Source of the DNA: Thermodesulfobacteriota bacterium
Lineage (GTDB): Bacteria; Desulfobacterota_D; UBA1144; Nemesobacterales; UBA2774
Length of the DNA: 64,000 nt
Direction of reading: 5' to 3'
Assembly: GCA_965216785.1 (NCBI GenBank)
Contig: OZ244197.1
Span: 32,001 to 96,000 of the forward strand
The notes below the pieces were generated by a model. It had not been told where the DNA came from. It worked only from the letters and a program-made list of their open reading frames with translations, and ran no database searches. Made by a program: the position numbers and the translations under genes. Of this stretch, positions 47,696 through 64,000 are shown in pieces (the first letter of the stretch is position 1; the number at the start of each line of letters is the position of its first letter).

Positions 47696-47801
47696 ATAAA
47701 GATGTCTCTGACGAATTAGGTTGTTTTATCTTGAATCTTTATAATTTATTGTCAATACTAGGTTAATTATGATTTCATAGATTTTGAAAGGAGTATGTTC
47801 T

Positions 47802-50800
47802 TTGGAGTGTTCAGCTTGTAAATCTGCAATCACATCAGGTGAAAAATTCTGCGGCAATTGCGGAAAGAAAGTAGGGGTTGAGTGTCAGAGCTGCGGCAAT
47901 GAAAATCCCCTTAAGAACAAGTTCTGCTCAGAATGCGGCAGCAAACTGAGTAACGGAACTGTATCTAAACCTGAGAGCTTCTCAAAAGATATTCCTGTAC
48001 AGCTTGCCAGAAAGGTGATAGAAGAAAAAGCACATCTTGAAGGCGAGCGTAAACAGATAACGGTCCTATTTGCGGACATATCAAATTTTACAGCATTATC
48101 CGAGAAGCTCGATCCGGAGGACGTAAAGAACCTAGTGGACGGATGCGCCAAGCTTATCATTCAGGATATTTACCACTATGAGGGTACGGTAGACAAATTT
48201 ACAGGCGATGGTGTTATAGCCCTATTCGGCGCTCCAATTTCACTAGAAGATCATGCAGCCCGTGCATTGAGCTCAGCGATTAAAATCCAGGAATCTGTGA
48301 AGGAATACAGCCGTAAAATAAAGAGCGAATTTGGGTATGAATTAGAAATGAGGATCGGGATAAATACAGGGCTCGTTGTGGTGGGGAGTATAGGGAACGA
48401 CCTTAGCATGGATTATACGGCTATGGGCGATACGATTAACCTCACTTCGAGACTCGAATCGTTTGCTGAACCCGGCACAATTCTGGTCAGCGAAAATACT
48501 CAAAGGTTAGTGAGTGACAGATTCAGTTTCGGTCCGGGCGAAGAATACCGAGTAAAAGGAAAAAAATCGGCCGTAACAGCTTACAAGGTATTAGATACGA
48601 AAGAGGATGTAACGCTTCGCGACTTTCAGACTGAAGGTAGACTGACCAGATTCGTCGGGAGAAAAAGAGAGATAAATACCCTCACTGATAGAATCGACCT
48701 GGCAAAGGAAAGCCAGGGGCAGATTATCTCCGTTATAGGGGAGGCTGGACTTGGGAAAACCCGCCTTATCCATGAGCTTAGAGACTTATTAGGAAATGAA
48801 GACCTTAGATGGGTAGAAGGCAAGAGCCTGTCTTATGGCAAGTCGATACCATATTTCCCTATCATTAACCTGCTGAAAAGTTTTTTTAGGATCGAGTCTG
48901 ATTATAGCGAGCGGGTAACTAAAAATAAAATCGAGAAGGAAATCAGAGAGATTGACTCAGATTTATTGTGGACTCTTCCATTCTTATACAGCCTGTTATC
49001 AATCGGCCCCTCCGATAAGAGTATTGAGCAAATGCACGAACGGGAGATAAGGAGGAAGAGCTACGAGGCTGTTAATTCCATCTTCCAGAGACAGAGCAGA
49101 AAGCAGCCGCTACTTTTAGTAGTCGAAAACCTCCACTGGGTGGACAGCGCTTCAGAGGAGCTTATAAATCACATTGTGCACAATATCGCCAGAAGCAGAA
49201 TTATAATACTGGTCTCAACCCGTCCGGGACATTTACATCTGTTTTCCGATAAATCCTACTATACTCAGATAATTCTAAGCCCCCTTTCAGACGCCGATTG
49301 CGAATCTATGATCAAGCAGATCCTGAAAACTCAAGACGTGTCGCGGGACTTACAGGATTTAATTTTGAACAAATGCGAAGGAAACCCATTGTATCTGGAA
49401 GAGGTCGTTAAGGATCTATTAGAGCAGGGCGCTATAAAGGTATCCATGGGAAAAAGCTCTCTCAGTAAAAAGGGCCATGAACTGGCAGTCCCGGGGACGA
49501 TACTTAGTATTATAATGAGCCGGGTGGACAGATTAGATGAGAACCTTAAAAATACGCTCCAGTGCGCCTCCGTGATAGGGAGAGAGTTTTCGTTCCCTCT
49601 ACTGAACGGCATTACAGGCGGCGGCATAGAATTACATGAAGACCTTGAAAAACTGAAAGAACTTGAGCTGATATACGACAAAGGACCCTCACCTGAGCCT
49701 GAATACTTGTTTAAGCACGCGCTCACTCAGGAAGCCACCTACAACAGCCTTCTCTTCGGTAGAAGAAAAGACCTTCACCTATCAATCGGGAAGCTACTCG
49801 AGAACACACATAAAAACAGGCTCGAAGAATATTATGAGACCCTGGCTTACCACTTCTATCACGGTGAAGACGTAGAGAAGTCTTTAGAATATATGACTCT
49901 AGCTGGAGACAAGGCTTTCAGGCTCCACTCTACTAGAGAGGCCATGGAGTTCTACCAAAAAGCTATTGAGCTCATTATTAAGCAGCCTGAAACCGAGGAA
50001 AATAAATCAAAAAGAGCAAACCTTACCATAAAGCTGACAAGGGTGCTCAGATTTTTCGAATCCCCTAAAAATATACTAGAAATGCTCAAAAGCATTGAGG
50101 ATATTGCTGATACACTCGAAGACTATAATCTAAGGTCCAGAATAATGTCTCTGATCGGTTTATTTACTGTGCTATTGGCTAAGAATCAGGAAGCCGGAAT
50201 CCCCTATTGTGAGAAGAGTATCGAGATCGCGAGCACTTTGAAAGATGAAAAAATCACATCACTGGCGTTCTATAGCCTCACAATGGCCTACTATTTTACA
50301 AGAGGAAAAAACGAAGGAGCCGACCTTTTCAAAAAAGCTTACAAAATTTCAAATAATGCCGGAGATTATTTTGAGGCGAGTCATATTCTGCTGCTCCATG
50401 GTATTTCACTTTGGCATTGGGGAGACTATGAGAAAGCCCAACAATACATAAAGAATTCTCGGGACTACGCTGAAAAAAGAAAAGCTCCTACAATGGCTGC
50501 ACACAGTTATTGCGCACATGGGGGTTACGGGGTGTTTTATGGAAACTTCACACAAAACTACGTCGACGACTGTAAAAAAGCGATGCAAATGTTTAAAGAA
50601 TTAGACGACGTGTACTACTATCTTATAGTTTCAGGCTGTTACTGGTACGGAGTTTACAAAACGACAGGGAATAAAGAAGCGGTTAAAAATCTCGAGGAGA
50701 CAATAAAGAAAAAAGAAGAAAATGATATGTGGATATGGCAGCCGATGCTTTATTCATATTTAGCTGAAGCATACTGTGATTTAGGTATTGAAAGGGAAGC

Positions 50801-51155
50801 GCTCGCATCATGTAAAAAATCGATAGAAATAGCAGAGGGAGCCGGGAACAAATTAGAAGCAGGCAGAGGCAGGATCGCCTTAGGAAAATATTATATAGAT
50901 AAACAAAATCGAGACTTGAAAAAGGCGGAAGTGAGTTTTAAAGAAAGTGTTGAAAACTTTGATGTTATTGAAGCAAATTCGGGCCTTTGTATGAGTTATT
51001 TCAATCTCGGTGCACTTTATAAAGAACAGAAAAACTATAAAGAAGCAAAAGCTTATCTTTCTAAAACTATACCGATGGCTAAAAAAGCGGGGTTATGGTG
51101 GTATTTACGGAGCTCAGAACTCCTCTTAAACGATATAAAGGAAAGCACATCATAA
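47802..51155 (+). CDS. Double zinc ribbon - class III adenylyl cyclase - STAND NTPase - TPR protein
   Basis: Four CxxC; FADISNFT, DKFTGDG, YTAMGDTINLTSRLE; Walker A GEAGLGKT; GNPLYLEE; FKHAL; TPR tail; TTG start after AAGGAG. Confidence 0.9.
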   Translation: MECSACKSAITSGEKFCGNCGKKVGVECQSCGNENPLKNKFCSECGSKLSNGTVSKPESFSKDIPVQLARKVIEEKAHLEGERKQITVLFADISNFTALSEKLDPEDVKNLVDGCAKLIIQDIYHYEGTVDKFTGDGVIALFGAPISLEDHAARALSSAIKIQESVKEYSRKIKSEFGYELEMRIGINTGLVVVGSIGNDLSMDYTAMGDTINLTSRLESFAEPGTILVSENTQRLVSDRFSFGPGEEYRVKGKKSAVTAYKVLDTKEDVTLRDFQTEGRLTRFVGRKREINTLTDRIDLAKESQGQIISVIGEAGLGKTRLIHELRDLLGNEDLRWVEGKSLSYGKSIPYFPIINLLKSFFRIESDYSERVTKNKIEKEIREIDSDLLWTLPFLYSLLSIGPSDKSIEQMHEREIRRKSYEAVNSIFQRQSRKQPLLLVVENLHWVDSASEELINHIVHNIARSRIIILVSTRPGHLHLFSDKSYYTQIILSPLSDADCESMIKQILKTQDVSRDLQDLILNKCEGNPLYLEEVVKDLLEQGAIKVSMGKSSLSKKGHELAVPGTILSIIMSRVDRLDENLKNTLQCASVIGREFSFPLLNGITGGGIELHEDLEKLKELELIYDKGPSPEPEYLFKHALTQEATYNSLLFGRRKDLHLSIGKLLENTHKNRLEEYYETLAYHFYHGEDVEKSLEYMTLAGDKAFRLHSTREAMEFYQKAIELIIKQPETEENKSKRANLTIKLTRVLRFFESPKNILEMLKSIEDIADTLEDYNLRSRIMSLIGLFTVLLAKNQEAGIPYCEKSIEIASTLKDEKITSLAFYSLTMAYYFTRGKNEGADLFKKAYKISNNAGDYFEASHILLLHGISLWHWGDYEKAQQYIKNSRDYAEKRKAPTMAAHSYCAHGGYGVFYGNFTQNYVDDCKKAMQMFKELDDVYYYLIVSGCYWYGVYKTTGNKEAVKNLEETIKKKEENDMWIWQPMLYSYLAEAYCDLGIEREALASCKKSIEIAEGAGNKLEAGRGRIALGKYYIDKQNRDLKKAEVSFKESVENFDVIEANSGLCMSYFNLGALYKEQKNYKEAKAYLSKTIPMAKKAGLWWYLRSSELLLNDIKESTS

Positions 51156-51187
51156 TTGACAATTTACTCATGGATAGAAGGTGAACT

Positions 51188-51937
51188 ATGGCATTTGAAG
51201 AAATAGAGAATAAAGTTGTTCTAATAACAGGGGGCTCGGAAGGTATAGGATTTGGGATTGCAAGAACTTTCGTCAATGCCGGTGCTAGAGTAGCTATCAC
51301 AGGACGAAATATAAATAAATTGGACAAAGCCAAAGAGCTTCTTGGAAATGATGTATTTTCGATTAATGCAGATGTTGCTCAAACCGAAAATTCCGCTGCC
51401 ACTATTGAGAGAGTTGTCAGCGAATTTGGGAGATTGGACATACTAATTAACAACGCCGGAGAGGGGAATCAAAAACCGTTATCTAAATGCGATATTAACG
51501 ACTATGACTTTGTTTTTAATACGAACGTAAGGGGGTTATTCGCTCTGACTCAGGCCGCAACCCCTGAGCTTAAAAAAACAAGTGGGAATATCATAATAAT
51601 AGCTTCGTCACTCGGTTTAAGACCGGCGCCCATGTACGGGGTCTATTCGGCTTCCAAAGCAGCTGTTATCATGTTCGCTCAGATGTGGGCTAAGGAACTT
51701 GCTCCGGACGTAAGAGTCAATTCGATAAGCCCCGGCGGTGTAGATACACCGTTATGGGACAAGCTGGTTGGTAAGGAAAAAAAGGAAGATGTTCTCAGCT
51801 TTGTCAAAGAACGTCATCTGGTAAAAAAGCTCGGCAGCCCGGATGAGATCGGAGGAGCGGCTCTTTACCTTGCTACTGAAGACTGGGTAACCGGAAGTAA
51901 TTTGGTGATAGACGGCGGTCTTTTCTATTCGATATGA
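51188..51937 (+). CDS. SDR family oxidoreductase
   Basis: TGGSEGIG, NNAG, YSASK, VRVNSISPG. Confidence 0.92.
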   Translation: MAFEEIENKVVLITGGSEGIGFGIARTFVNAGARVAITGRNINKLDKAKELLGNDVFSINADVAQTENSAATIERVVSEFGRLDILINNAGEGNQKPLSKCDINDYDFVFNTNVRGLFALTQAATPELKKTSGNIIIIASSLGLRPAPMYGVYSASKAAVIMFAQMWAKELAPDVRVNSISPGGVDTPLWDKLVGKEKKEDVLSFVKERHLVKKLGSPDEIGGAALYLATEDWVTGSNLVIDGGLFYSI

Positions 51938-51987: not shown

Positions 51988-52170
51988 TGTAAACATCCAT
52001 TACAGTTAAAATAACTATTTTCTGTTGTTAAGTTCCTTAAATCTCCCAAATTTTAAGTATATATTCAAATTCCAAGATTCACCCTCCTGGCAATCTCTGT
52101 AAGCAGGGTTGACACTTCTGTCAAATTATTCAATGTTTTCAGATGTTTAGAATTTGGCACACTGCTTGCA
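51988..52170 (+). promoter_or_regulatory. sigma54 promoter with two single UAS-like palindromes
   Basis: TGGCACACTGCTTGCA (52155-70); TGTAAACATCCATTACA (51988-52004); TGTAAGCAGGGTTGACA (52098-52114). Confidence 0.75.
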
Positions 52171-52576: not shown

Positions 52577-52852
52577 ATGAAATTTATAGCGGTCCATCCA
52601 CTAAATAGTCCTATAAGAGAGGACCAGATTACCGACGCAGCCAGAGCGTGCAGGGCGGAGAACAGTAACAACGCCTGCTGGATAGACAGCTGGACCCAGC
52701 TTAACGACGAAGGAGAGATCACAGTTATCTATTGTCAGTACGACGCAAAGGACGCAGAATCCGTAGCAGATCTTCTTAAAAAGGGAGCACCAGACCTTCC
52801 GGTCGAGGGTATATACCTTATGGGTAAGCTCGAAGCAGAAAATTACAGGTAA
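52577..52852 (+). CDS. DUF4242 (SCO4226-like) protein
   Basis: MKFIAVH...W.DSW....IYCQYDA.DAESV......LPVEGI. Confidence 0.65.
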   Translation: MKFIAVHPLNSPIREDQITDAARACRAENSNNACWIDSWTQLNDEGEITVIYCQYDAKDAESVADLLKKGAPDLPVEGIYLMGKLEAENYR

Positions 52853-52861
52853 AAACAGTTC

Positions 52862-52892
52862 GGGCGTTAGGTACGTATTGTATCCAACGCCC
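52862..52892 (+). terminator. Stem-loop after the YdhR-DUF4242 operon
   Basis: GGGCGTT...AACGCCC inverted repeat. Confidence 0.5.
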
Positions 52893-52915: not shown

Positions 52916-52945
52916 TTGAATTAAGAAAATCTAAAGTGATATAAT
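52916..52945 (+). promoter_or_regulatory. sigma70 promoter of the bEBP-STAND gene
   Basis: TTGAAT-18bp-TATAAT with extended TG. Confidence 0.55.
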
Positions 52946-52963: not shown

Positions 52964-55624
52964 ATGCAGCGTTCCGCGGTAGAAAAAAATAAGATCATCG
53001 GCTCAAGCGCAAAGCTTTCTGAGGTCGTGGACTTAATTTTGAAAATCGCCGATACACCGACCAACATACTTATCACTGGTGAAAGCGGCACAGGAAAGGA
53101 GCTTGCCGCAAGTCTACTGCATGAAAAGAGCAGCCGCTCAGATAAACCTTTTATGGACATCAATTGTGCGGCTATACCCGAGACGCTTCTGGAGAGTGAG
53201 CTCTTCGGTATTGAAAAAGGGGTCGCGACGGGGGTTGAGAGAAGAGAGGGTAAAATCGAGCTATCCGCAGGGGGGAGCCTTTTCCTTGACGAAATAGGCG
53301 ACATGAGCCTCGGCGCTCAGGCAAAGCTGCTCAGGGTCCTTCAGGAAAGGAGCCTTAAAAGAGTAGGCGGCAAAAGCGACATCGCCGTTGACCTGAGGAT
53401 AATCGCAGCCACGAACAAAGACCTTCTTTCGGAGATAAAAAAGGGGAAATTCAGAGAGGATCTTTATTACAGGATCAACGAAGTACATATTAAGATGCCT
53501 TCCCTGAGGGAAATACGTGAGGATATACCCAGTTTGTCCGAGCATTTTCTTCATTCACTCTGTCATGAGCTCAATATGAATACACTCCGGTTTAGTGATT
53601 CAGTCCTGGACCGACTATCGAGCTACAGCTGGCCCGGAAACATCAGAGAGCTTAAAAACGAGGTTAAAAGGGCAGCGCTCCTGGCCGATGGCCATATAAT
53701 AGAAGAAAGAGATTTATCTCCAGATATTTTGAATTTCTTTAAAAACAAGGATGCCAGTCAAGGTCTTGTAAGTGAAGCAACTTCGCTACCTCGAGCAGTA
53801 GAAGAGCTCGAAATCCAGATGATAAAGCAAGCCCTAAAATCATGTCAGGGAAACAGGGTAAAGGCCTCTCAGATGCTTGGAATATCAAGGCAGGGACTAA
53901 TAAAAAAGATAAGCAGATACAGGATAGATCAGGGTAGCTCTCAGAAAAAGAAAATTTCAGACCGATTGCTCAAGTCAAGCAAAAGATCGTTTGTCGGAAG
54001 AGCAAATGAGATTAAAGAAATAAAGGATCTAATCAAGTCCAAGAAGTCTACTTACTATGTCTTATTTATTCACGGCATAGGAGGGATTGGGAAGACAAGT
54101 ATGGTTAAGGAACTTTTAAATTCCTTGGACGCTAAGGTTAGTACAATTTACCTTGATTGTAGAGACATAGAGCCGACGGAGAACGGTTTTCTAACATCGC
54201 TGGGTAATGAACTTAATCTCAAGAGCACCAGAATTACAGTAGAGCGTGTTTTAAAGAGTTTGGAGAAGAGAAAGGAAAGAACACTACTGGTACTCGACAC
54301 CTATGAGACTTTCGGACTTATGGATACCTGGCTCAGAAAGACTTTTATACCATCTCTACCTGAGAATTTTCTTACAATAATCATCGGAAGACACCCGCCA
54401 AATAATTCATGGTTTACAAGCTCAGGCCTTGGGACTCTTATTAAGAGTATTGAGCTTGAGGAGCTTTCTTATGAGGACGCGATCAACTTCTTAATACTCC
54501 GTGGGCTTACGTCAGAAGAAGCAGAAAAGACCTATTCATTCGCCCGGGGGCACCCGATGGCTCTTGAGCTAGCAGCAAATTCGGTATCATCAAAACCCAC
54601 TCGAGACATTTCATACAAATCATTCCCTAACATTATTCATCAGCTGACGCAGGATTTCCTGCTGGGTCTAGATAAGAAGACCAGAAAGACGCTCGAGAGC
54701 CTCTCTTTAGTGAGGCGCTATGACGACACCCTACTGAAACACTTACTAAACGAAGACTACGAAGAAGGTATCTTTGACAATCTCTTAGAGCTCCCATTCG
54801 TCAGCCTAACAGGAGAAGGATGCTTGATACACGATATAGTAAGGGAAACTATAGCTCGTGAGCTATCACTCCGTGATCCGAAGAGGTATAAGGATTCGAA
54901 AAAAGCCGCATGGGTATATCTGAATGAACAATCGCTTGCGAAGCACGGTGAATCACTCTGGCAAGCTACTGCCGATTTGCTATACACTATAGAAAACCCG
55001 GTTGTAAGGGATGCTTTCTTTCCTAAAGGTGCAATGGGTTATGTCGTCGAGCCACTATCTCATGAGGATAAAGAGCATGTAATTGATATTGTGCGTGAGT
55101 CCGAATCGGGTGAACCTGCCGATATAATTGAGAACTGGCTCACATATTATCCGGGCAGTTTCAGTGTTGTTAAAGATATAACCGGTGAAGTTGAGGCGTT
55201 CTTTATTTTATGCGAGCCTAATGAGATCGATAGGAGCCCTTTATCTGAGGATAAAATACTCGACGTTTGGTTTAAGCACTTGGAATCTAATCCTCTAGAT
55301 TCCACAGACAAAGCGCTATTTCTAAGGAGGTGGCTCAGTAGAGGACATGGTGAAGGTCTTTGTCCTGCACAAGGAGCTTCATGGCTCGACGTTAAGAGAA
55401 ACTACATGGAGCTTAGACCTAAATTAAAAAGGCTTTATACAACACTGACTGATTTAGAAAACTATAAGCCTGTCGTATTACCGTTAGGTTTTTCTCTTTT
55501 AGATAGTTCAGAGATTGAGCTCGAAGAAACAACTTACTATTCCGCCATTATTGATTTCGGACCGGACAGCGTCGACGGATGGCTCAGAAAACTTATCGGT
55601 CTTGAGCTTGGTATTGGTCAGTAA
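52964..55624 (+). CDS. sigma54 enhancer-binding protein (AAA+, Fis-type HTH) fused to a C-terminal STAND NTPase
   Basis: GESGTGKE, ESELFG..KGVATGV, FLDEIG, WPGNIREL, HTH GISRQGL; then FVGR..E, GIGGIGKT, LVLDTYE, GHPMAL. Confidence 0.85.
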   Translation: MQRSAVEKNKIIGSSAKLSEVVDLILKIADTPTNILITGESGTGKELAASLLHEKSSRSDKPFMDINCAAIPETLLESELFGIEKGVATGVERREGKIELSAGGSLFLDEIGDMSLGAQAKLLRVLQERSLKRVGGKSDIAVDLRIIAATNKDLLSEIKKGKFREDLYYRINEVHIKMPSLREIREDIPSLSEHFLHSLCHELNMNTLRFSDSVLDRLSSYSWPGNIRELKNEVKRAALLADGHIIEERDLSPDILNFFKNKDASQGLVSEATSLPRAVEELEIQMIKQALKSCQGNRVKASQMLGISRQGLIKKISRYRIDQGSSQKKKISDRLLKSSKRSFVGRANEIKEIKDLIKSKKSTYYVLFIHGIGGIGKTSMVKELLNSLDAKVSTIYLDCRDIEPTENGFLTSLGNELNLKSTRITVERVLKSLEKRKERTLLVLDTYETFGLMDTWLRKTFIPSLPENFLTIIIGRHPPNNSWFTSSGLGTLIKSIELEELSYEDAINFLILRGLTSEEAEKTYSFARGHPMALELAANSVSSKPTRDISYKSFPNIIHQLTQDFLLGLDKKTRKTLESLSLVRRYDDTLLKHLLNEDYEEGIFDNLLELPFVSLTGEGCLIHDIVRETIARELSLRDPKRYKDSKKAAWVYLNEQSLAKHGESLWQATADLLYTIENPVVRDAFFPKGAMGYVVEPLSHEDKEHVIDIVRESESGEPADIIENWLTYYPGSFSVVKDITGEVEAFFILCEPNEIDRSPLSEDKILDVWFKHLESNPLDSTDKALFLRRWLSRGHGEGLCPAQGASWLDVKRNYMELRPKLKRLYTTLTDLENYKPVVLPLGFSLLDSSEIELEETTYYSAIIDFGPDSVDGWLRKLIGLELGIGQ

Positions 55625-55706: not shown

Positions 55707-55988
55707 CTACCTGTAATCTTCACCATATACCTCGGCTATCTGAAAGATACCATCAGATGGCGGCAGCTCTGGTACGGATGATGAGAGGGTCGCGTGAATG
55801 GAATTAACATCTTTACTGTCCCACTCACAAAAAACTCTCGACACTTTTCCGTCATCAGTCAACTGAAGCCAGCTCCTGACCCAGTAAGCATCAGTGCTGA
55901 GGTTGGCCTTGCACTTTTGTGCAATCGGCACAACGTCCTCGCCGTTTACTGGTGGGTTAACCGGGTGAATAGCTATATATCTAGGCAT
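55707..55988 (-). CDS. DUF4242 (SCO4226-like) protein, paralog of 52577-52852
   Basis: MPRYIAIHP...WVRSW...GKVSRVFCEWD...LP.SDGI. Confidence 0.65.
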   Translation of the reverse strand: MPRYIAIHPVNPPVNGEDVVPIAQKCKANLSTDAYWVRSWLQLTDDGKVSRVFCEWDSKDVNSIHATLSSSVPELPPSDGIFQIAEVYGEDYR

Positions 55989-56030: not shown

Positions 56031-57134
56031 TCAATACCGAGACATAATATTCTCATGAAAACTATTCATAGCTTTTATAGGATCAGGCACAGGGGCTATC
56101 ATTATCTGATTTATACCCTGTGACTCCATCCTTTTAATCGTGTCGATGATCTCGCTGCTGGTTCCAACGAGAACTGATGCTTCTATCATCTCCGGCGTGA
56201 GCACATCGTTAAATTCCTCGTTCCAGAAAAAATAGTTACTGTAGTAGGCAAGGTGTCTTCTTTCGGGGTTGTCCAGGTCTGAAGGATACGCGTTTGTGAA
56301 TTTCATGACCCCGTCCCTTAAGCTCTCAGGAAGCGGCTCGCCCGGAGTTGTACCTGTGTTTTTCCCGTGGTTTTCAAGTGACTTCGCGAGTATATTCAGA
56401 CATACAGAGACCATAGGTCCCAGCTGATGTCTGACTGATTCAGTTTCAAGAGATTCGCCTTCATCCAGAATATAAAAAGCGCTAAGAACCATGGTATATA
56501 TGTCCTCAGGGTTTCTTCCTGATTTCTTCGCGCCCTTTCTGATTCGCTCCATACAATAATCTATGTACTCCTCGTCTATCGCCCCAAGAAGCATTACACC
56601 GTCCGCAAGCTCTCCGGCAAGCTCAAGAGTCTTTGGTCCGCTTCCGGCCATAAATATTGGTATTTCGTCTTTGGTATTTATAAAGCCCATATCTGGACTC
56701 AGGAATTTAACAGGTCTCTTCCTCTCCTGAGATAAATACTTATCCGGGCCTTCACTGTATTCCGCCTCTTCACCCTTGAGCATTTTTCTATATATGCCAA
56801 CGTCATTCCGAAGCTCATCAAGCTTAGCTATCGGCATACCCCAGGCCCGTCTCGCGGTGTTACCGGTACCGATCCCGAGAACACACCTGCCGGGCGCAAG
56901 CTCGTTTAGAGTAGCCATGGCTCTTGCGGTAACTGGAGTCATCCTGGCGCGCGGGCATGTGACGCCAGGGCCAAGCTTTATTTTTTTTGTATTGGTGGCG
57001 CAAAGGGTTAACGTTTCAAAAACATCGCTCCCTATGCTGTCATACGGCATAAAATGTGTGAACCCCTTATCTTCGCCATGGGCCACCCATTGCCATGAAT
57101 GTATATGTGAGGGAAAATGCAATCCAAAGTCCAT
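56031..57134 (-). CDS. LLM-class flavin/F420-dependent oxidoreductase (Mer-like)
   Basis: T.KIKLGPGVT, ATLNELAPGR.VLGIGTG, IPIFMAGSGPKTLELAGELADG. Confidence 0.85.
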   Translation of the reverse strand: MDFGLHFPSHIHSWQWVAHGEDKGFTHFMPYDSIGSDVFETLTLCATNTKKIKLGPGVTCPRARMTPVTARAMATLNELAPGRCVLGIGTGNTARRAWGMPIAKLDELRNDVGIYRKMLKGEEAEYSEGPDKYLSQERKRPVKFLSPDMGFINTKDEIPIFMAGSGPKTLELAGELADGVMLLGAIDEEYIDYCMERIRKGAKKSGRNPEDIYTMVLSAFYILDEGESLETESVRHQLGPMVSVCLNILAKSLENHGKNTGTTPGEPLPESLRDGVMKFTNAYPSDLDNPERRHLAYYSNYFFWNEEFNDVLTPEMIEASVLVGTSSEIIDTIKRMESQGINQIMIAPVPDPIKAMNSFHENIMSRY

Positions 57135-57180: not shown

Positions 57181-57286
57181 TGCAAGGTGTGTGCCAAATC
57201 TATAACTAGCTGATATCGTTAGATTATATTCTCTAACTTGTCGGAAATACGTAAACTAAATTTACGTATTGTTAACTAGATTTACT
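57181..57286 (-). promoter_or_regulatory. sigma54 promoter with IHF site and tandem UAS
   Basis: Minus strand TGGCACACACCTTGCA (57181-96); IHF-like TATCAGCTAGTTA (57203-15); CGTAAACTAAATTTACG (57250-66) and TGTTAACTAGATTTACT (57270-86). Confidence 0.8.
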
Positions 57287-57326: not shown

Positions 57327-58859
57327 TCAAATGTTGTATCTCTTCATTTTTTTGAAGAGCCCTTGCCTAGTTATATCAAGGAGCTCAGATGCTTTTTGTT
57401 TATTACCCCCGGTTCTAGCAAGGGCGTCTTTAATCATCTTGACCTCTATTTTCTCGACAACGCTCTTAATAGTTTGAGACGCGTCAAATTCCTCTAATGA
57501 TGGTGTACCGTCTTCTCCACTATCTTCTAATATATAGTGAGAAAGGTCTTCTTCTTGAATCACATCTCCTGAAGACATTATAATCGCTCTTTTCATTTCA
57601 TTTTCTAGCTCTCTTACATTACCAGGCCATGTGTATCCTTGAAGTCGCACAAGAGCGTCATTTGACAGACTTAGGGGCTCTCGAGAATATTCTTTAGAGT
57701 ACTTTTGTAAAAAATATTTGGCTAAAGTTTCAATATCTTCTTTAATGTCACTGAGAGAAGGCATTTCAATATGTACTACGTTTAAGCGGTAGAAAAGGTC
57801 CTCACGGAATGAATCTTTTTTGATCGCCTTTTTGAGATCCTTGTTTGTCGCCGCTACAACTCTGATGTCTACGTTAATCTCTTTCTTGCCGCCTAGCCTT
57901 ATAACTTTCCTTTCCTGAAGAGCTCTCAGGAGCTTAGCCTGTGCCGCCAGGCACATATCCCCTATCTCATCGAGGAACAAGGTACCGCCGTTTGCCATCT
58001 CAATCTTTCCTTCCCGTCTATCAACTCCGGTGGCGACACCTTTTTCAATTCCGAAAAGCTCGCTCTCGAGAATTGTGTCAGGTAAAGAGGCACAGTTTAT
58101 ATCAATAAAAGCCTTGTCTGAGCGGAGACTGTTATAGTGAATCATTCTGGCTGCGAGCTCCTTGCCAGTCCCGCTTTCTCCAGTTATCAGAACATCCAAA
58201 GGGCTCGATGCTATTTTTTCAATCAGTCTGACCACTTCAGCAATCTTTGGACTTGTACCCACTAATTCATTTATAAAAAACTTCCCTTCACTCCTTTCTC
58301 TCAGGATTTTGTTTTCGCGCTCCAGGCTTTTCTTTGATCCCTCAAGGTTACGTATGTGCTTTGCGTTTTCGATTGCGACAGCTGCGTTCGAAGCAAAAAT
58401 TTCGAGTATGTCCCTATCATTTGAGGTGAACTTGCCCCCGGTTTTGTTTATGGCTTGGAGAACACCTACCGACCGACCCTGAAAGTTTTTAATCGGAACA
58501 CAGAGTAACGATTTGGTTCGGTATCCCGTGCTTTTATCAATAGCAGGATTGAATTTCTTATTTTTGTAAGCGTTGTCTACAATTACAGATTTTCCTGAAA
58601 CAAATACCTCCCCTGCTATGCCATCATTGGAATCGAAGCGAACTGTCTCATTTGTACCGAGCGCAATCTTAGACCAAAGCTCATCTGTGAAGTCATCGAA
58701 TAGAAAAAGCGTCCCCCTGTCTGCTCCTACGATTTGTGCTGACTCCTGCACAATGAAGTCAAGAAGCAGATCGAGGTCTTTCTCCGCCCTCATCATACTC
58801 CTAAGGTTATAAAGGCTTTGATATTCTGTTTCCTTATTTATCATTTCATTTTTAGACAT
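57327..58859 (-). CDS. GAF-domain sigma54 enhancer-binding protein
   Basis: GAF (GIAG.V...FN..ID..TGYRTKSLLCVP...QAINK...F...D), GESGTGKE, GVATGV, WPGNVREL, Fis HTH DITRQGL. Confidence 0.9.
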   Translation of the reverse strand: MSKNEMINKETEYQSLYNLRSMMRAEKDLDLLLDFIVQESAQIVGADRGTLFLFDDFTDELWSKIALGTNETVRFDSNDGIAGEVFVSGKSVIVDNAYKNKKFNPAIDKSTGYRTKSLLCVPIKNFQGRSVGVLQAINKTGGKFTSNDRDILEIFASNAAVAIENAKHIRNLEGSKKSLERENKILRERSEGKFFINELVGTSPKIAEVVRLIEKIASSPLDVLITGESGTGKELAARMIHYNSLRSDKAFIDINCASLPDTILESELFGIEKGVATGVDRREGKIEMANGGTLFLDEIGDMCLAAQAKLLRALQERKVIRLGGKKEINVDIRVVAATNKDLKKAIKKDSFREDLFYRLNVVHIEMPSLSDIKEDIETLAKYFLQKYSKEYSREPLSLSNDALVRLQGYTWPGNVRELENEMKRAIIMSSGDVIQEEDLSHYILEDSGEDGTPSLEEFDASQTIKSVVEKIEVKMIKDALARTGGNKQKASELLDITRQGLFKKMKRYNI

Positions 58860-59041: not shown

Positions 59042-59617
59042 ATGAGATATACATGTTTAATTTTGAGTGTTGTTTCATTTATGTGGTGTTCAATGTATGT
59101 GGAGGCCCAGGAAGATAAGTTTTTGACAGATGAGGAAATAATAGAACAAAAACTTGTTGAACCTTGGTCCCCTGATGCAGTCGGAAAAACCCAGTTTCAG
59201 AAACTTATGGATGATACTATTCGTAGAACAGTTGCTTGGAAGTTCATGCAACTTACATTACCTGGTACGGGTCAACATGTTACTAATATTAGAAAGAATA
59301 ACGACTACGAATTATGGACTTATGTCTGGAATAACGGAACAGAATTATCTATAAATCCATTACGTGTACGAGTTGTAGGTAAACCCGGGGAAATTAAATT
59401 TTATAGATCTTGTCGTCGACAAAACTTAACAAACAGTAACAGGATAAGTGTTAGTTTTTCAGATTTCCTTCCTGGTCGAACGAAATACCTATCTGTTTGT
59501 TTCCGTGCAATGAAAAATATGTCAGTTGCAAACTTTAGTGTCAAACTAGGATTGTACGGAAAAATAGATCCTATAGGTAGTTCATGGCTTACCATGAATC
59601 CTAGAGTTTCAGAGTAA
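59042..59617 (+). CDS. Secreted hypothetical protein
   Basis: GGAGG RBS, signal peptide ending VEA, beta-rich mature region. Confidence 0.7.
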   Translation: MRYTCLILSVVSFMWCSMYVEAQEDKFLTDEEIIEQKLVEPWSPDAVGKTQFQKLMDDTIRRTVAWKFMQLTLPGTGQHVTNIRKNNDYELWTYVWNNGTELSINPLRVRVVGKPGEIKFYRSCRRQNLTNSNRISVSFSDFLPGRTKYLSVCFRAMKNMSVANFSVKLGLYGKIDPIGSSWLTMNPRVSE

Positions 59618-59789
59618 AAAGATATTATAAGATGGATTTAGTATGGGTGTGGGTTAGCCCACACCCTTCAAACCGAGAACATATAAATACAATGAATTGG
59701 ATAGAAAAAATATAAGATGGACTAGGTAGATACTGCAGTTTGTTCCAAAAATATATTCTAAGCTCTGCAAAATCCGACGTTGTTTTCAA

Positions 59790-59870
59790 GGTTCCTTTAT
59801 TACCCCAGCTTGCTCTCTCATGGTAAATCACTGTTGCTATTTCTTCGTCTGATAGCTGATCGCTCAAGAC
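59790..59870 (-). pseudogene. Remnant of a cytochrome c C-terminus
   Basis: QLSDEEIATVIYHERASWGN resembles the class I cytochrome c C-terminal helix; no CxxCH and no proper start. Confidence 0.45.
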
Positions 59871-60058
59871 TTATAGCAAACATGCTACGAATCAATACGC
59901 TAAAGTAACCATATTAGGATCTATAGGAGACTCTAAAGACTAAACATTACATTATTCTGAAAACACTCCTTCTTCGCAAACAGATCAAAGCCATTCTTAC
60001 AGTGGACAACATCTAGTATTGAAATAACTTCCTTATAGTAGTTATAATCACTAAGTAA

Positions 60059-60994
60059 ATGAAGCCTTCTATGAAACCTTCTTTTAATCAATTATGCGAG
60101 TGGGAAGAATTAAATAAACAGGGCTTGCTTCCTGAAAACATTAAAATGACGTTTGAGCAGGCACAATATCAAGTGCAACAAGTTATTAATGCTTCAGGTT
60201 TAAGAGAAGCGCTCTCCAAGACAAAATCTCAAATTCAAGAAGTAATAGATACTTCAGGATTGAAAGAAGTGCTCTACGGGGTAAATGCTCAAATGCAAGA
60301 ACTCTATGAAAACATCAAACCATCATTAATACTCCTCGGTGAATTTTACGAACGAAAAAAAGATCATGATGAGAACTATCAAAAAAAATATCCATTAGGT
60401 TATTACTGCTTTAGTAATAAAAGTAGTGATGTATCTTATCGAATACTGAAAGATAAGGTTCGAATGAGAGTAAAAGAATATGGGATATATTTTGATAATA
60501 GAAGGAATTTTAATAGATCCTCTAAAGGTGAATTAGCTGAAACCTTGTTTGAGAATGAATATCTAAAAATTTTTCAAGAAACAAAAGAACTCTATTCACT
60601 ATCTGCAGTCGAGTTTGAGAATGCGGATTTCGGTCTAGATTGTATTAAAAGAATTGATAAGCTTCCTGAAAGAGTACGAAGCAATTTTCGTTATAAACTG
60701 GATAGTTTGAATAAACAACAGTCATTTGAAGAAAATTTAGAGAGAAGATTAGAACTCGAAGCTGAATTGCTTATGTCTGATTCATTAGAACTATCTGAAA
60801 TTATAGAGATTGTAGAAGCAATAGAAAATCTGCCAGATAAACAACAAGAAGCAATAAAGATGTTTTACATTCAGGGGTACACACAAGCAGAAGCGTCACG
60901 ACAATTAGAAATATCAGAACCTAGCTTCAAAGAAAGATTAGATAATGCACACAAAACCCTAAGAAAGAAATTTCAAAATATTTTCGTACAATAA
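60059..60994 (+). CDS. Sigma70 region-4 HTH protein of the mobile element, with N-terminal 20-aa repeats
   Basis: AIENLPDKQQEAIKMFY..GYTQAEAS..LEISE..FKERL..A..TLR; 60-bp repeat starting at 60170 and 60230. Confidence 0.7.
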   Translation: MKPSMKPSFNQLCEWEELNKQGLLPENIKMTFEQAQYQVQQVINASGLREALSKTKSQIQEVIDTSGLKEVLYGVNAQMQELYENIKPSLILLGEFYERKKDHDENYQKKYPLGYYCFSNKSSDVSYRILKDKVRMRVKEYGIYFDNRRNFNRSSKGELAETLFENEYLKIFQETKELYSLSAVEFENADFGLDCIKRIDKLPERVRSNFRYKLDSLNKQQSFEENLERRLELEAELLMSDSLELSEIIEIVEAIENLPDKQQEAIKMFYIQGYTQAEASRQLEISEPSFKERLDNAHKTLRKKFQNIFVQ

Positions 60995-61062
60995 AAATTC
61001 TACCCTAAGAATCGCCCATTTAGGTTACCTATATATATTAGAAGCAGTAATTGGAGGTAATC

Positions 61063-61251
61063 ATGATAAATGGCCGCATAGCAATAACTCTCTCTCAGAA
61101 AGGCATAGATACCGTTTCATTTGTTTCAAGTAATAAAGCGGAAGCTCTGAATCTATTTCTGATCATAAAGGAAGAGCTCGAAAATTTTGAAGATAACATC
61201 AAAAAATTGATTGAAAGTCATGAGGTGAAAGAAAATGACTTTAACCAATAG
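61063..61251 (+). CDS. Small hypothetical protein
   Basis: GGAGG RBS; overlaps the next ORF. Confidence 0.6.
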   Translation: MINGRIAITLSQKGIDTVSFVSSNKAEALNLFLIIKEELENFEDNIKKLIESHEVKENDFNQ

Positions 61252-61441
61252 AGGTAAGCTTCTTACTCCCAAAAAGGCTAAAGAAACTTATGGTATCGAG
61301 ACTACGAAAATTTATAACTGGATACGTAATCGCCGGTTTACATTCATCAAATTGGATAAGGAGATCTTATTTTGGGAGAAGGACCTATTGGATTTTTTGG
61401 AACAAAATACTAGCTATTCATGTATTGATATTGGTGAGTAA
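61235..61441 (+). CDS. Excisionase/AlpA-like HTH protein
   Basis: LLTPKKA...YGI..TKIYNWIR......IKL...ILF...DL..FL. Confidence 0.75.
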   Translation: MTLTNRGKLLTPKKAKETYGIETTKIYNWIRNRRFTFIKLDKEILFWEKDLLDFLEQNTSYSCIDIGE

Positions 61442-62234
61442 TTTGAGAGCAGATAAAGAATCAAATTTGGACGATCGCATATTAACATCAGAGTATGGTT
61501 ATTTCCAAATACCAAATTCTATTTTTAATCTCAAATTACCACCTAATGAATTACTAGTGCTCTTTAATCTTATTAGGCGAGCAGATAAAACCGGAGAGTG
61601 TTACCCAAGTATCCCAAGAATAGGAAGAGATACAGGAATAAAATCAGAAAATACAGTTAGAAAAGCACTAAGGGGAATAATGAATAAGAAACTCGTTAGG
61701 AGAACCGGCAGAACATATCGTAATGTGCATATAATGAAGATAACCCCCAGCATCTATCAAAGCATTATAAGATCGAGTGAAAAGAATAGAATTACGAAAA
61801 ATGTAAAGCGTGATAGTTATATTAACCCTTCAATAATTGAAGTGGTGACCCCTTCAAATAATGATCTACAACCCCATGAATATTTGAGTACTAAGGAAGA
61901 AAAGAATGAATACCCATTTTTTAAGGAAAACAAAAAGGGATACAGCACGAATTCTCTCAAAAAAAATTCATTTAGGAGGAAATGCAATAAGAACGACAAT
62001 GATCCATCAATAATAACAAAGTTAGATTTAGAGATTCCAGTAAATCAGGCAAAAAGAATATTAGGGGAATTCGGGATAAAAGAAAATAACCAGCAAGGGA
62101 ATCCATTATATTATTCCAATTTGGATCCTAAGCAGACAAAAGATGCTATAGATGAGCTTGAAAGGATAAAAACAATAAATATGCGAGAACATCCGAAAGT
62201 ATATGAAAATAATTTGGATCCCTTCGATATATGA
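61434..62234 (+). CDS. Phage-type replication initiator (HTH_36-like)
   Basis: FQIPN, L...ELLV...L.R.AD..G.CYPSI..I..DTG..S.NTVRKAL; GTG start overlaps the xis stop. Confidence 0.7.
   Translation: MSNLRADKESNLDDRILTSEYGYFQIPNSIFNLKLPPNELLVLFNLIRRADKTGECYPSIPRIGRDTGIKSENTVRKALRGIMNKKLVRRTGRTYRNVHIMKITPSIYQSIIRSSEKNRITKNVKRDSYINPSIIEVVTPSNNDLQPHEYLSTKEEKNEYPFFKENKKGYSTNSLKKNSFRRKCNKNDNDPSIITKLDLEIPVNQAKRILGEFGIKENNQQGNPLYYSNLDPKQTKDAIDELERIKTINMREHPKVYENNLDPFDI
61826..61887 (+). repeat. Iteron-like repeats within the initiator gene
   Basis: cccttcaataattga / cccttcaaataatga / cccatgaatatttga at 23-24 bp period, followed by an A-rich tract. Confidence 0.55.
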
Positions 62235-62246
62235 TAAATGGTCTAA

Positions 62247-62345
62247 GGGAGGGGGGTGTAATTTGTTACAACCTAAATCATGGAGACCGACGGGGCAGTC
62301 AATTTCTTGTATAGTCAGCAAAAAAACTTTCGAGCGTAAAAAAAT
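62247..62345 (+). other. Candidate cos/packaging-initiation region
   Basis: GGGAGGGGGG...GGAGACCGACGGGGCAG GC island immediately upstream of a P27-type terS, as in HK97-like cos regions. Confidence 0.45.
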
Positions 62346-62367
62346 CTCGTGATGGAGGTATTAACAA

Positions 62368-62817
62368 TTGCCAAGAGGTGGACATAATAAAAAACCTGAA
62401 TCTTTGAAAATTATTCAGGGAACATTTAGAAAAGACAGAGCAAATCCAAATTCTCCAAAACTAAAGTCTATAGCTCCTAGTCCATCATATAGCCTTCCCA
62501 AACAGGCAAAAAATGAATATTTAAAACTCAGCAAGTTATTGCTCGACATGGGAGTACTCTCAGAACCAGATCAGGGTGAACTTGAGAACCTTTCGATAAT
62601 CAGAGCTCAGATAAAGTATCTTTCAAAGAGACTTTTCAACGTGACCGATATGAATGAATTCCGAAAAGTACAGATAGCAATTAATGATGCAATAAAGATA
62701 AGCAATGCATTGTCTATAAGATTTGGATTAAGTCCTGCAGATCGAAGTAGAGTGAATTTATCGCAGGAGAAGAAACATAACAAGTGGGAAGAATTTGAAA
62801 GGAGAAATAGCATATGA
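62368..62817 (+). CDS. P27-family terminase small subunit
   Basis: MPRGG..KKP..LK..QGT.RKDR, AK.EY..L...L...GVLSE.D, FGLSPADRSRV. Confidence 0.8.
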   Translation: MPRGGHNKKPESLKIIQGTFRKDRANPNSPKLKSIAPSPSYSLPKQAKNEYLKLSKLLLDMGVLSEPDQGELENLSIIRAQIKYLSKRLFNVTDMNEFRKVQIAINDAIKISNALSIRFGLSPADRSRVNLSQEKKHNKWEEFERRNSI

Positions 62818-63218
62818 AAAAAACAAAAATACCAGACATAAAAATTATAAGTGGTGAATTTAACAATAACATTCCTGAGATGCCGAAAGATCTTTCACAT
62901 GAAGCTAAATATTGGTGGAAAAGACTTATTAAAAGTATTGATTCTAAAGTCTTAATGCCATGTGATGATCTAGCCTTAATTCTACTAGTTGATTCGTTGG
63001 CTGCTTATCATAAAACTAAAATGAATATTCGAAAATTCGGTGATTCATATGAAACTGTAGATGATGAGGGACACAAAAAGAGATATATGAGGCCAGAAGT
63101 AGAAATTTTATCTATATTCTATCGATCTGTTATTTTCGGGCTTCGAGAATTTCTAATCAGCCCGTATTCTAGAGAAGATTTTAGTGATTTTATAGATGAT
63201 AGTACTGATAATATATGA
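62814..63218 (+). CDS. Second P27-family terminase small subunit-like protein
   Basis: P.MPKDLS.EAK.WW, D..AL..L, G..Y.......RPEV, LREF.ISPYSR; ATG overlaps the previous stop. Confidence 0.65.
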   Translation: MKKTKIPDIKIISGEFNNNIPEMPKDLSHEAKYWWKRLIKSIDSKVLMPCDDLALILLVDSLAAYHKTKMNIRKFGDSYETVDDEGHKKRYMRPEVEILSIFYRSVIFGLREFLISPYSREDFSDFIDDSTDNI

Positions 63219-63437
63219 AATACCACTTGAACAAATTAGATTTAATTTGTGTGTAAGAATTTGATTTAACTAGTTCAGGAATGTTCATTAGATTATACTG
63301 AGTTTTTGTTAAAATTGATTTTGTATCTTGATTGTAATTAAGGATACTTCATAAGTGTTATAATATATGAATGAAAAATACAATCCGACCAATCAATATA
63401 GAGAGTCAAAGATTATGACGTAATTTGGGTATTTGAT

Positions 63438-64000
63438 ATGATTGCAATATTGAAAAGAGCTTATTTTTCACCTTACCACTTATTTTCTGCTAACAATTTC
63501 CTAGATCGTGCATCATCAATTGAGTTTAAACATACCGGGAAAGATAGATTTGATTTCAATCATAACTCTTATGTAATTAGTTCCATTATATCATCTGTCG
63601 CATTTTTAGAAGCGGCTATTAATGAACTATTCCAAGATGTATATGATGATCATGAAAGTTACACAAGCCTCATCGATAATGATGTCAAAAAAACTATGAA
63701 AAAAGTGTGGCAGATGTTAGAAAGAAGACCCGTATTAGAAAAATACCAACTAGCACTAGAACTATCAAATGTAAAAGCTTTTTCAAAAGGTCGCAATCCT
63801 TATAGTAGTACAAATTTAGCAATTCTATTGCGCAACGAGTTAGTACATTACAAACCCAAAACTTTCGGAGCAGGTAAAGTACATAGCTTTGCTAATAAGC
63901 TCAAAGGGAAATTTGAATTAAACCCACTTATGTCAAACCCATCAAACCAATTTTTCCCTGATCAGTGCTTGAGCAAAGGATGTGCAGAATGGGTATTAAT
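63438..64000 (+). CDS. HEPN-like protein (3'-truncated by window edge)
   Basis: Open frame from ATG 63438 to window end; AFLEAAINE helix and RNELVH (R-x4-H) at 63831-48; absent from the ORF track. Confidence 0.7.
   Translation, partial: MIAILKRAYFSPYHLFSANNFLDRASSIEFKHTGKDRFDFNHNSYVISSIISSVAFLEAAINELFQDVYDDHESYTSLIDNDVKKTMKKVWQMLERRPVLEKYQLALELSNVKAFSKGRNPYSSTNLAILLRNELVHYKPKTFGAGKVHSFANKLKGKFELNPLMSNPSNQFFPDQCLSKGCAEWVL

What the first reader, a model, noticed from the sequence alone, without database searches (positions are those of the whole stretch)
52964..55624. Inverted-architecture bEBP: sensor-less sigma54 AAA+-HTH followed by a ~550-aa STAND NTPase module
Seen: the AAA+ domain starts about 8 residues from the N-terminus, the Fis HTH is mid-protein, and a second P-loop (GIGGIGKT, LVLDTYE, GHP) plus a C-terminal region (FLRRWLS..G..CPAQ..WLD.KR.YM.LRP) follows. 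Canonical bEBPs have an N-terminal sensor and a C-terminal HTH. From memory, this STAND-type module usually ends in a winged HTH next to YdhR/DUF4242 genes; here it appears rewired to a sigma54 output. Two oligomerising ATPases share one chain.
Basis: partly seen in the sequence, partly recalled or inferred. Interest (0 to 1): 0.75.

Follow-up and report, generated by a model that had tools for sequence, protein, structure and literature searches.

The report
Sigma-54 activator with NLR-like switch
This gene encodes one protein in which a sigma-54-type transcription activator core lacking its usual front-end sensor is joined to an immune-receptor-like ATP switch and a predicted acetyltransferase-fold domain, and it likely turns on the neighbouring ydhR operon when that last domain binds a still unknown small molecule.

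Summary
Confirmed. The 886-aa ORF is intact: sigma-54 AAA+ (11-258), Fis HTH (279-319), then a STAND ATPase (about 331-690). The unexplained tail (about 691-880) is predicted to have a GNAT (acetyltransferase) fold. The fusion is not an artefact: 17 protein clusters share it (47-83% identity), as one clade in both halves. It is rare: 1 of 120 genomes in the phylum.

The STAND-GNAT unit is a portable module. Elsewhere it carries a winged HTH, adenylate cyclase, LuxR, LytTR, SARP or kinase domain. The scan had noted this loop on other DNA, and published views of it conflict.

A -24/-12 promoter with two TGTAA-N7-TTACA boxes precedes ydhR-DUF4242, with the same spacing in two relatives. ydhR travels with the module across phyla.

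Best reading: an NLR-like effector-switch-sensor protein whose effector is a sigma-54 activator. Ligand, direction of control and activation itself are untested. A neighbouring GAF-bEBP with a similar HTH is the main rival regulator. Related activator cores also precede cyclase-STAND-TPR proteins, so two ATPases in one chain is not unique. No description was found in 10 literature searches.

The parts
52964..55624 (+). Fusion gene, 886 aa: bEBP AAA+ - Fis HTH - STAND - GNAT-fold
52994..53737 (+). Sigma-54-type AAA+ domain and lid (aa 11-258); Walker A/B, sensor I, arginine fingers and sensor II intact
53219..53236 (+). Sigma-contact loop GVATGV (aa 86-91) in place of GAFTGA
   Evidence: 13 of 13 aligned fusions
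53798..53920 (+). Fis-type HTH (aa 279-319); recognition helix RQGL shared with the neighbouring GAF-bEBP
53921..53953 (+). Short linker, predicted flexible (pLDDT under 50 at aa 323-334)
53954..55033 (+). STAND module (aa ~331-690): FVGR, Walker A GxGGIGKT, Walker B hhhhDxYE, sensor-1 R476, GxP, xHD
   Evidence: 105 rows; fold match to MalT 8bob Z 20.2, rmsd 4.2, 335 aligned; Foldseek E 2e-8
55034..55603 (+). Predicted GNAT-fold domain (aa ~691-880), no Pfam match; likely sensor
   Evidence: (Naa60 Z 13.5, RimI Z 13.3); no Pfam hit
52155..52170 (+). Sigma-54 -24/-12 consensus site before ydhR
   Evidence: same site in L087 and L093, and before ydhR in L094
51988..52004 (.). Distal candidate enhancer box TGTAA-N7-TTACA (offset -166)
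   Evidence: offsets -166 and -165 in L087 and L093
52098..52114 (.). Proximal candidate enhancer box (offset -56, one mismatch)
   Evidence: offset -56 in L087 and L093
52208..52549 (+). ydhR-family gene (putative monooxygenase), only copy found in the genome; likely target
52577..52852 (+). DUF4242 / SCO4226-like gene a; likely target
52862..52892 (+). Hairpin after the ydhR-DUF4242 pair (weak here, z -1.8; z -3.5 and -3.7 in L087 and L093)
52916..52945 (+). Sigma-70-type promoter with extended -10 in front of the fusion gene, conserved in L087 and L093
55651..55700 (.). Strong hairpin between convergent genes (z -7.6), likely bidirectional terminator
55707..55988 (-). DUF4242-like gene b (below the Pfam cut-off; 36-39% identical to gene-a homologues)
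56031..57134 (-). Luciferase-like (LLM) oxidoreductase gene
57181..57196 (-). Second sigma-54 site, before LLM-DUF4242b, with tandem boxes at 57270-57286 and 57250-57266 (offsets -89/-69)
57327..58859 (-). GAF-AAA+-HTH paralogue with the same GVATGV loop (57% identical core); rival or partner regulator

Best explanation
The protein joins a sigma-54-type AAA+/HTH core to a STAND ATPase and a predicted GNAT-fold domain, and it is likely a one-component activator of the sigma-54-type promoter in front of ydhR-DUF4242, likely held off by its resting STAND module until a ligand would bind the GNAT-fold domain. Shown: domain order, intact motifs in both ATPases, conservation of the fusion, and the promoter and two boxes with conserved spacing. 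Predicted: the GNAT fold and flexible tethers. Inferred from MalT-type STANDs: the closed ADP-bound form opens on ligand binding, takes ATP and oligomerises. Inferred from GAF-type bEBPs such as NorR: the core descends from a GAF-repressed activator and should be active once unrestrained, so STAND opening would release and cluster the tethered AAA+ domains into a ring on the boxes, which would remodel sigma-54 through the GVATGV loop. The gene is likely made at a steady level from its own sigma-70-type promoter. My guess for the ligand is an acyl-CoA or a small organic substrate of the YdhR, LLM or SDR enzymes; this step is the weakest.
For: Fusion in 17 clusters, found alike by two searches; one clade in the STAND tree (16 rows, SH-like 100) and in the bEBP tree (15 rows, 98). 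All bEBP catalytic motifs and STAND motifs kept at 47-82% overall identity. rpoN present. All 5 sigma-54-like sites in the 16-kb island have two boxes, against 0 of 23 elsewhere in the genome. Four of them use -89/-69 spacing, also seen at loci with a GAF-bEBP where no fusion was found (L089, L090, L131); the -166/-56 spacing was seen only at fusion loci (window, L087, L093). ydhR sits beside 3 fusion loci, once on the other side of the gene (L094), and beside 2 winged-HTH forms of the module in Acidobacteriota, but at 0 of 25 GVATGV bEBP loci and 0 of 80 other bEBP loci. 10 of 25 GVATGV loci have a sigma-54 site within 1.5 kb (0.4 expected), against 11 of 76 GAFTGA-type loci (1.3 expected). 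Kazakov 2015 (PMC4641369) predicts a sigma-54 regulon for GVATGV-bearing DVUA0100. NorR lacking GAF is constitutive (PMC2941729). STAND cycle: PMC6468293 abstract.
Against: The loop lacks the phenylalanine: Francke 2011 (PMC3162934) lists replacements other than Tyr as inactive and files GVATGV under inactivated EBPs. The neighbouring GAF-bEBP has the same loop and a similar recognition helix, so it could serve every box in the island. The ydhR promoter of L094 has no 17-bp box by my rule (an 18-bp palindrome is visible), and the one sigma-54 site in L088 has none. Only 3 of 8 sigma-54 sites near GVATGV genes in other genomes have a box. The box rule was drawn from the ydhR region and its thresholds set after looking, so p = 1e-5 overstates. 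2 of 17 clusters are split inside the C-terminal module. The direction of control rests on analogy alone. In the smaller bEBP tree the fusion clade had only weak support (48).
Confidence: 0.5

Rival explanations
1. Same activator and target, but control is purely positive: the sensor-less core cannot assemble alone and needs the ATP-bound STAND oligomer as a scaffold.
For: STANDs act by oligomerising. The full-length model shows separately folded domains with no fixed mutual orientation (pTM 0.60, against 0.84 for the module alone), so there is no predicted repressive interface. The module drives many unrelated outputs at either end, which suits clustering better than a tailored contact.
Against: The core nests among GAF-bEBPs, and the GAF-type activator NorR is active once the GAF domain is removed. 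A low pTM in a single-chain model says little about docking.
Confidence: 0.22
2. The fusion does not activate sigma-54. It binds the boxes as a repressor, competitor or helper subunit, and the neighbouring GAF-bEBP (or a sigma-70 route) does the activating.
For: No phenylalanine in the loop. Shared recognition helix with the GAF-bEBP. The proximal box is closer to the promoter than in the other four promoters.
Against: The GAF-bEBP has the same loop, so a dead loop would leave the island's five promoters without a local activator. All AAA+ catalytic motifs are conserved in 13 of 13 fusions. GVATGV genes lie near sigma-54 sites far more often than chance.
Confidence: 0.17
3. The GNAT-fold domain is an active acyltransferase (for example one modifying a partner such as DUF4242, or the AAA+ domain), and the fusion couples two outputs, not a sensor and an output.
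For: GNAT fold. The query has R-x-x-G-x-G after strand 4, and G796 is invariant in 105 rows.
Against: The motif (recalled, from no call) is complete in about half the family (G or A at 798 in 52 of 105), carries a near-invariant Glu and is followed by prolines. No Pfam acetyltransferase match. The domain occupies the STAND sensor position and is nearly always paired with a separate output domain.
Confidence: 0.09
4. The fusion is an assembly error or a chance read-through of two neighbouring genes.
For: In related genomes a GAF-bEBP gene lies about 300 bp upstream of a STAND-GNAT-cyclase gene (L089, L114, L131). No listed independent contig bridged the junction.
Against: 17 clusters from several sources, down to 47% identity, with a constant linker and neither GAF nor cyclase domain.
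Confidence: 0.01

Closest known systems
DVUA0100 of Desulfovibrio vulgaris Hildenborough (Kazakov 2015, PMC4641369; passages read)
   Same: GVATGV loop; a sigma-54 regulon predicted from promoters and a binding motif
   Different: DVUA0100 has a long N-terminal region and is tied to type III secretion genes; the passages read mention no STAND or GNAT part and rest on prediction
PspF / HrpR-S type (Francke 2011 type Ic; PMC3162934 section 6 read in part)
   Same: AAA+ begins at the N-terminus and is followed by an HTH, with no N-terminal sensor
   Different: PspF is controlled in trans by PspA and ends at the HTH; here 560 further residues follow in cis, and the loop is not GAFTGA
LevR type (Francke 2011 type II)
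   Same: Regulatory domains lie C-terminal to the AAA+ domain
   Different: LevR has an N-terminal DNA-binding domain and PTS-phosphorylated PRD/EII domains; here the HTH is central and the regulator is a STAND plus a GNAT fold
MalT and PH0952 STANDs (8bob, 6mfv; PMC6468293 abstract read)
   Same: Best structural matches of the switch module; a STAND used for transcription control
   Different: MalT has a TPR sensor, a C-terminal LuxR HTH and works with sigma-70 (last two recalled); here the sensor is GNAT-fold and the output is an N-terminal AAA+ activator
NLR / Avs tripartite STANDs (e.g. Avs5; abstract start in the search listing)
   Same: Order: N-terminal effector, NOD, C-terminal sensor
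   Different: No repeat sensor, no toxic effector and no defence genes seen nearby; the Avs4 model scores 21.7 bits against a cut-off of 1500
bEBP-HTH-cyclase-STAND-TPR proteins found here (18 rows, some partial)
   Same: Sensor-less GVATGV core at the N-terminus of a STAND protein, from the same bEBP subclade
   Different: A different STAND class, with cyclase and TPR domains; separate branches of the tree, so likely independent fusions; no paper on them was seen

Membership tests
Canonical sigma-54 bEBP | PF00158 AAA+ domain with Walker A/B, sensor I, arginine fingers, sensor II | tested here: met
Canonical sigma-54 bEBP | GAFTGA loop with aromatic residue at position 3 | tested here: not met
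   GVATGV in 13 of 13; so not filed as canonical, although it likely works like one
Canonical sigma-54 bEBP | Fis-type HTH after the AAA+ domain | tested here: met
   HTH_8 at 279-319, but not at the C-terminus
Canonical sigma-54 bEBP | rpoN in genome; -24/-12 site with upstream palindromes nearby | tested here: met
Canonical sigma-54 bEBP | ATP-dependent activation of sigma-54 polymerase | not testable with these tools
   needs a reporter or in vitro assay
GVATGV-loop bEBP clade (DVUA0100-like loop) | GVATGV loop and placement among GVATGV proteins | tested here: met
   nested in a 123-row GVATGV clade, SH-like 98; DVUA0100 itself was not in the tree
STAND NTPases | Walker A, Walker B, sensor-1 Arg, GxP and xHD motifs (motif names recalled) | tested here: met
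STAND NTPases | NBD-HD-WHD-arm fold | tested here: met
   MalT Z 20.2 (rmsd 4.2, 335 aligned), NRC2 17.8, PH0952 17.6, Apaf-1 17.0
STAND NTPases | Inducer-dependent ADP/ATP exchange and oligomerisation | not testable with these tools
   biochemistry needed
MalT family | TPR sensor and C-terminal LuxR HTH | tested here: not met
   no TPR or GerE match; NCBIfam MalT 26.7 bits against a cut-off of 537
GNAT acetyltransferases | GNAT fold | tested here: met
   predicted model only; Naa60 Z 13.5 (rmsd 3.0, 156 aligned), RimI Z 13.3
GNAT acetyltransferases | CoA-binding motif (R/Q)xxGx(G/A) (recalled) | tested here: inconclusive
   present in the query; G invariant, last position G/A in 52 of 105
GNAT acetyltransferases | Acyl transfer activity | not testable with these tools
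   none
LevR type II bEBP | N-terminal DNA-binding domain; PRD and EII domains | tested here: not met
AVAST/Avs defence STANDs | Family model above cut-off; TPR sensor; defence neighbourhood | tested here: not met
   neighbours are metabolic and regulatory genes; PADLOC was not searched

The most novel reading that the evidence does not exclude
A ring-builds-ring regulator: an NLR-like STAND with a GNAT-fold metabolite sensor oligomerises on ligand binding and templates the hexamer of its own tethered sigma-54 AAA+ activator across two boxes 110 bp apart, activating through a phenylalanine-free loop. This would be a new class of bEBP control, and would define STAND-GNAT as an unrecognised, widely reused one-component sensor.
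Probability: 0.3. Interest if true: 0.8.

Novelty: new variant of a known kind. Interest (0 to 1): 0.58.

Why it matters
It offers a compact, testable unit (one gene, one promoter, two defined boxes) for two open questions. The first is whether a bEBP with a phenylalanine-free GVATGV loop can activate sigma-54, on which two published analyses disagree. The second is how a STAND switch controls a second oligomeric ATPase in the same chain. It also exposes an apparently undescribed STAND-GNAT sensor module that has been plugged into at least seven output types; a sigma-54 reporter would be a convenient screen for its ligand. The fusion itself is confined to a few uncultured lineages, which limits its breadth.

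Tried and rejected
Genome-collection scan with the full-length alignment: swamped by the common bEBP Walker A pattern, only 1/64 of the collection scanned; no fusion found, and the loci served only as bEBP controls. Sequencing runs: no RNA holder listed; other runs cover only scattered pieces. Chloroflexota sample: module not found in 301 genomes at E 1e-60, although P0016 is named from that phylum; Pseudomonadota 1 of 401; Acidobacteriota 4 of 401 and Myxococcota 1 of 301, with a different query. Plasmid collection: only 8 distant (24-28%) matches. Sequence search of the PDB found cyclase domains and PH0952, and no GNAT. ESM Atlas: top clusters unnamed; an acetyltransferase cluster at 0.89 with 12% of members annotated is a lead only. 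The first tree run did not finish; FastTree trees were used without an AU test. Frameshift or chimera: rejected. Anti-phage STAND: rejected on model scores and neighbourhood. A three-part intermediate (bEBP-STAND-GNAT-cyclase) was not among the listed hits; proteins over about 1600 aa were not searched. The paper on GAFTGA phenylalanine mutants (PMC2764435) is not held, so that evidence is second-hand through Francke 2011.
Full report
Observation. Window 52964-55624 (+) encodes 886 residues without a stop. Pfam places Sigma54_activat at 11-176, the AAA+ lid at 182-258, HTH_8 at 279-319 and AAA_16 from 343. One public contig covers 51900-57300 without a difference but may be the window's source; among the listed pieces of the three other runs laid, none bridges the junction (106 records not shown). 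The proof that the fusion is real comes from homologues. A search with residues 330-886 listed 120 of 835 hits, and 17 clusters (the query included) carry the bEBP part in front. A profile search returned the same 17 as the only hits covering 73% or more of the query. Thirteen full or near-full-length ones align at 47-82% identity with a 9-13 residue linker. Two are N-terminal fragments, and two end inside the C-terminal module, with the remainder as a separate protein on a contig of equal length. Source names among the hits point to Thermodesulfobacteriota / Candidatus Dadabacteria; the lineage of the window is my inference. In the 120 genomes of the phylum the module occurs in 5, and is fused to a bEBP only here.

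The C-terminal module. An AlphaFold2 model of residues 330-886 (pLDDT 85, pTM 0.84) matches STAND proteins best: MalT Z 20.2 (rmsd 4.2, 335 aligned), NRC2 17.8, PH0952 17.6, Apaf-1 17.0. Its last ~190 residues match GNAT proteins: Naa60 Z 13.5, RimI 13.3 (Foldseek agrees). Pfam does not recognise that domain. STAND motifs are nearly invariant in 105 rows. The CoA-loop motif is present in the query but complete in only about half the family, so enzyme versus sensor is open; the position after the STAND arm favours sensor (inference).

The module is portable. Among the best 120 near hits I classed 87 as cyclase-tailed (the default class; Pfam checked on a subset), 17 bEBP, 7 LuxR, 5 kinase, 1 winged HTH and 3 none. 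At the 50% level, 555 representatives score E 1e-30 or better. Of 74 that I scanned, chosen from the best 150 for near-full length or extra domains, 54 end in Trans_reg_C, 4 in LuxR and 1 in LytTR; 3 carry a kinase, 4 an N-terminal BTAD, 1 an N-terminal winged HTH and 1 DUF4062; 6 had no hit at E 1e-11.

The activator core. All catalytic motifs are conserved, but the loop is GVATGV in 13 of 13. Two of the genome's 14 other bEBPs share it, one being the GAF-bEBP at 57327-58859. Kazakov 2015 (PMC4641369, passages read) predicts that GVATGV-bearing DVUA0100 still activates sigma-54 promoters. Francke 2011 (PMC3162934; section 6 part 1, passages and supplement rows read) lists GVATGV among inactivated EBPs. 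My test: 10 of 25 GVATGV loci from other genomes have a -24/-12 site within 1.5 kb (0.4 expected from shuffles), against 11 of 76 GAFTGA-type loci (1.3 expected). The two sets differ in GC content and relatedness. Earlier notes of this scan reached the same view on other DNA; they are not independent support.

Cis elements. rpoN is present. A consensus -24/-12 site at 52155-52170 precedes ydhR-DUF4242a, and another at 57181-57196 precedes LLM-DUF4242b. Two TGTAA-N7-TTACA boxes lie at offsets -166 and -56 from the first (shuffle P 0.0002), and at the same offsets in L087 and L093. Of 28 such promoter sites in the genome, the 5 in this island all have two boxes and the other 23 do not (the rule was derived from one of the five and tuned after looking). 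Four use -89/-69 spacing, as do promoters at loci with a GAF-bEBP where no fusion was found (L089, L090, L131); -166/-56 was seen only with the fusion. Against: L094's ydhR promoter and L088's site have no box by this rule; 3 of 8 sites near other GVATGV genes have one, and controls 0 of 20. A hairpin and a conserved extended -10 sigma-70-type promoter separate the target genes from the fusion gene.

Target assignment. ydhR is single-copy here and lies next to the fusion in L087, L093 and, on the other side, L094. It also flanks winged-HTH forms of the module in two Acidobacteriota loci, but none of 25 GVATGV bEBP loci or 80 other bEBP loci (the HMM was built partly from these hits, and Pfam confirms L094, L166, L168). 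Overall only 8 of 55 module loci show YdhR or DUF4242, and many contigs are short. ydhR thus follows the STAND-GNAT module, not the GAF-bEBP. That paralogue nevertheless has a similar recognition helix and cannot be excluded as a regulator of this promoter.

Origin. The fusions form one clade in the module tree (16 rows after dropping one short row, SH-like 100) and in the bEBP tree (15 rows, 98; only 48 in the smaller tree), nested among GAF-type GVATGV proteins. In related genomes a GVATGV GAF-bEBP gene lies about 300 bp upstream of a STAND-GNAT-cyclase gene, a plausible pre-fusion layout: loss of GAF and cyclase would give this protein (inference; no AU test). Eighteen further sensor-less GVATGV cores have long C-terminal extensions. 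Of the 9 scanned, 5 read cyclase-AAA_16 plus a TPR or long tail, 1 is cut after cyclase-AAA_16, and 3 have no strong match after the HTH. They fall on separate branches, so placing this core in front of a STAND seems to have happened more than once.

Mechanism. STANDs rest closed on ADP and multimerise on induction (PMC6468293 abstract). The GAF-type activator NorR is constitutive without GAF (PMC2941729 passages). I therefore favour a core that is active when free, restrained by the resting STAND, and released and clustered when the GNAT-fold domain binds ligand (0.5). A purely positive scaffold (0.22), a non-activating role (0.17) and an active acyltransferase (0.09) remain. The full-length model folds each domain but fixes no mutual orientation (pTM 0.60; low confidence at 262-275 and 323-334), which does not decide the direction.

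Novelty. Ten full-text searches, judged from listings and abstract starts, showed no description of this fusion or of a STAND-GNAT regulator. The STAND survey (bioRxiv 10.64898/2026.01.04.697583, passages) has no GNAT mention, and the 7 held supplements of its journal version (PMC13581612) have no Sigma54, HTH_8 or GNAT term. PMC12316311 (passages) filters on GAFTGA and would discard this protein. Subscription reviews of bEBP and STAND architectures are not in the library and may list it. Known precedents cover each part: sensor-less bEBPs, C-terminal control in LevR, STAND transcription factors, and the GVATGV loop. The combination is a new variant of a known kind. Interest 0.58.

Noticed in passing
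window 46705 (-) and 46850 (+): Two divergent sigma-54-like sites share one tandem pair of boxes; they face a methyltransferase gene and a collagen-like cysteine-rich protein gene.
   Followed up: partly
window 58991 (+), ORF 59042-59617: A fifth sigma-54-like site with -89/-69 boxes precedes a 191-aa ORF with no Pfam match.
   Followed up: partly
window 59600-64000: GC falls to 31-36%; the ORFs include a sigma70 region-4 protein, an HTH_36 protein and two small ORFs that look like phage terminase small subunits (recalled, not tested). Possibly a prophage edge.
   Followed up: no
L133:8517-8852 (G068): A sigma-54 site, a DUF4242 gene and a 111-aa bEBP fragment 78% identical to the fusion's N-terminus, ending just after the loop, abut a STAND-GNAT-cyclase gene: a deletion product or a misassembly.
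   Followed up: partly
G000:C1:2998876-3002008 and 2135559-2135999: A third GVATGV GAF-bEBP has its own sigma-54 site, one box and a DUF4242 gene; another DUF4242 gene follows a sigma-54 site with a loose box. DUF4242 genes may belong to GVATGV regulons generally.
   Followed up: partly
proteins P0141, P0142, P0144, P0148, P0164 and relatives: Sensor-less GVATGV bEBP-HTH followed by cyclase, STAND and TPR or long tail regions (1430-1590 aa), apparently separate fusions in the same lineage.
   Followed up: partly
window 47784-51937; L087, L089, L131: A zinc-ribbon-cyclase-STAND-TPR gene and an SDR gene recur near the module in relatives.
   Followed up: no
L134:3710-4693: Three tandem DUF4242 genes and an FAD oxidoreductase lie upstream of a STAND-GNAT-cyclase gene; DUF1326 recurs as neighbour or fusion partner of the module (L131, L164, P0047).
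   Followed up: partly
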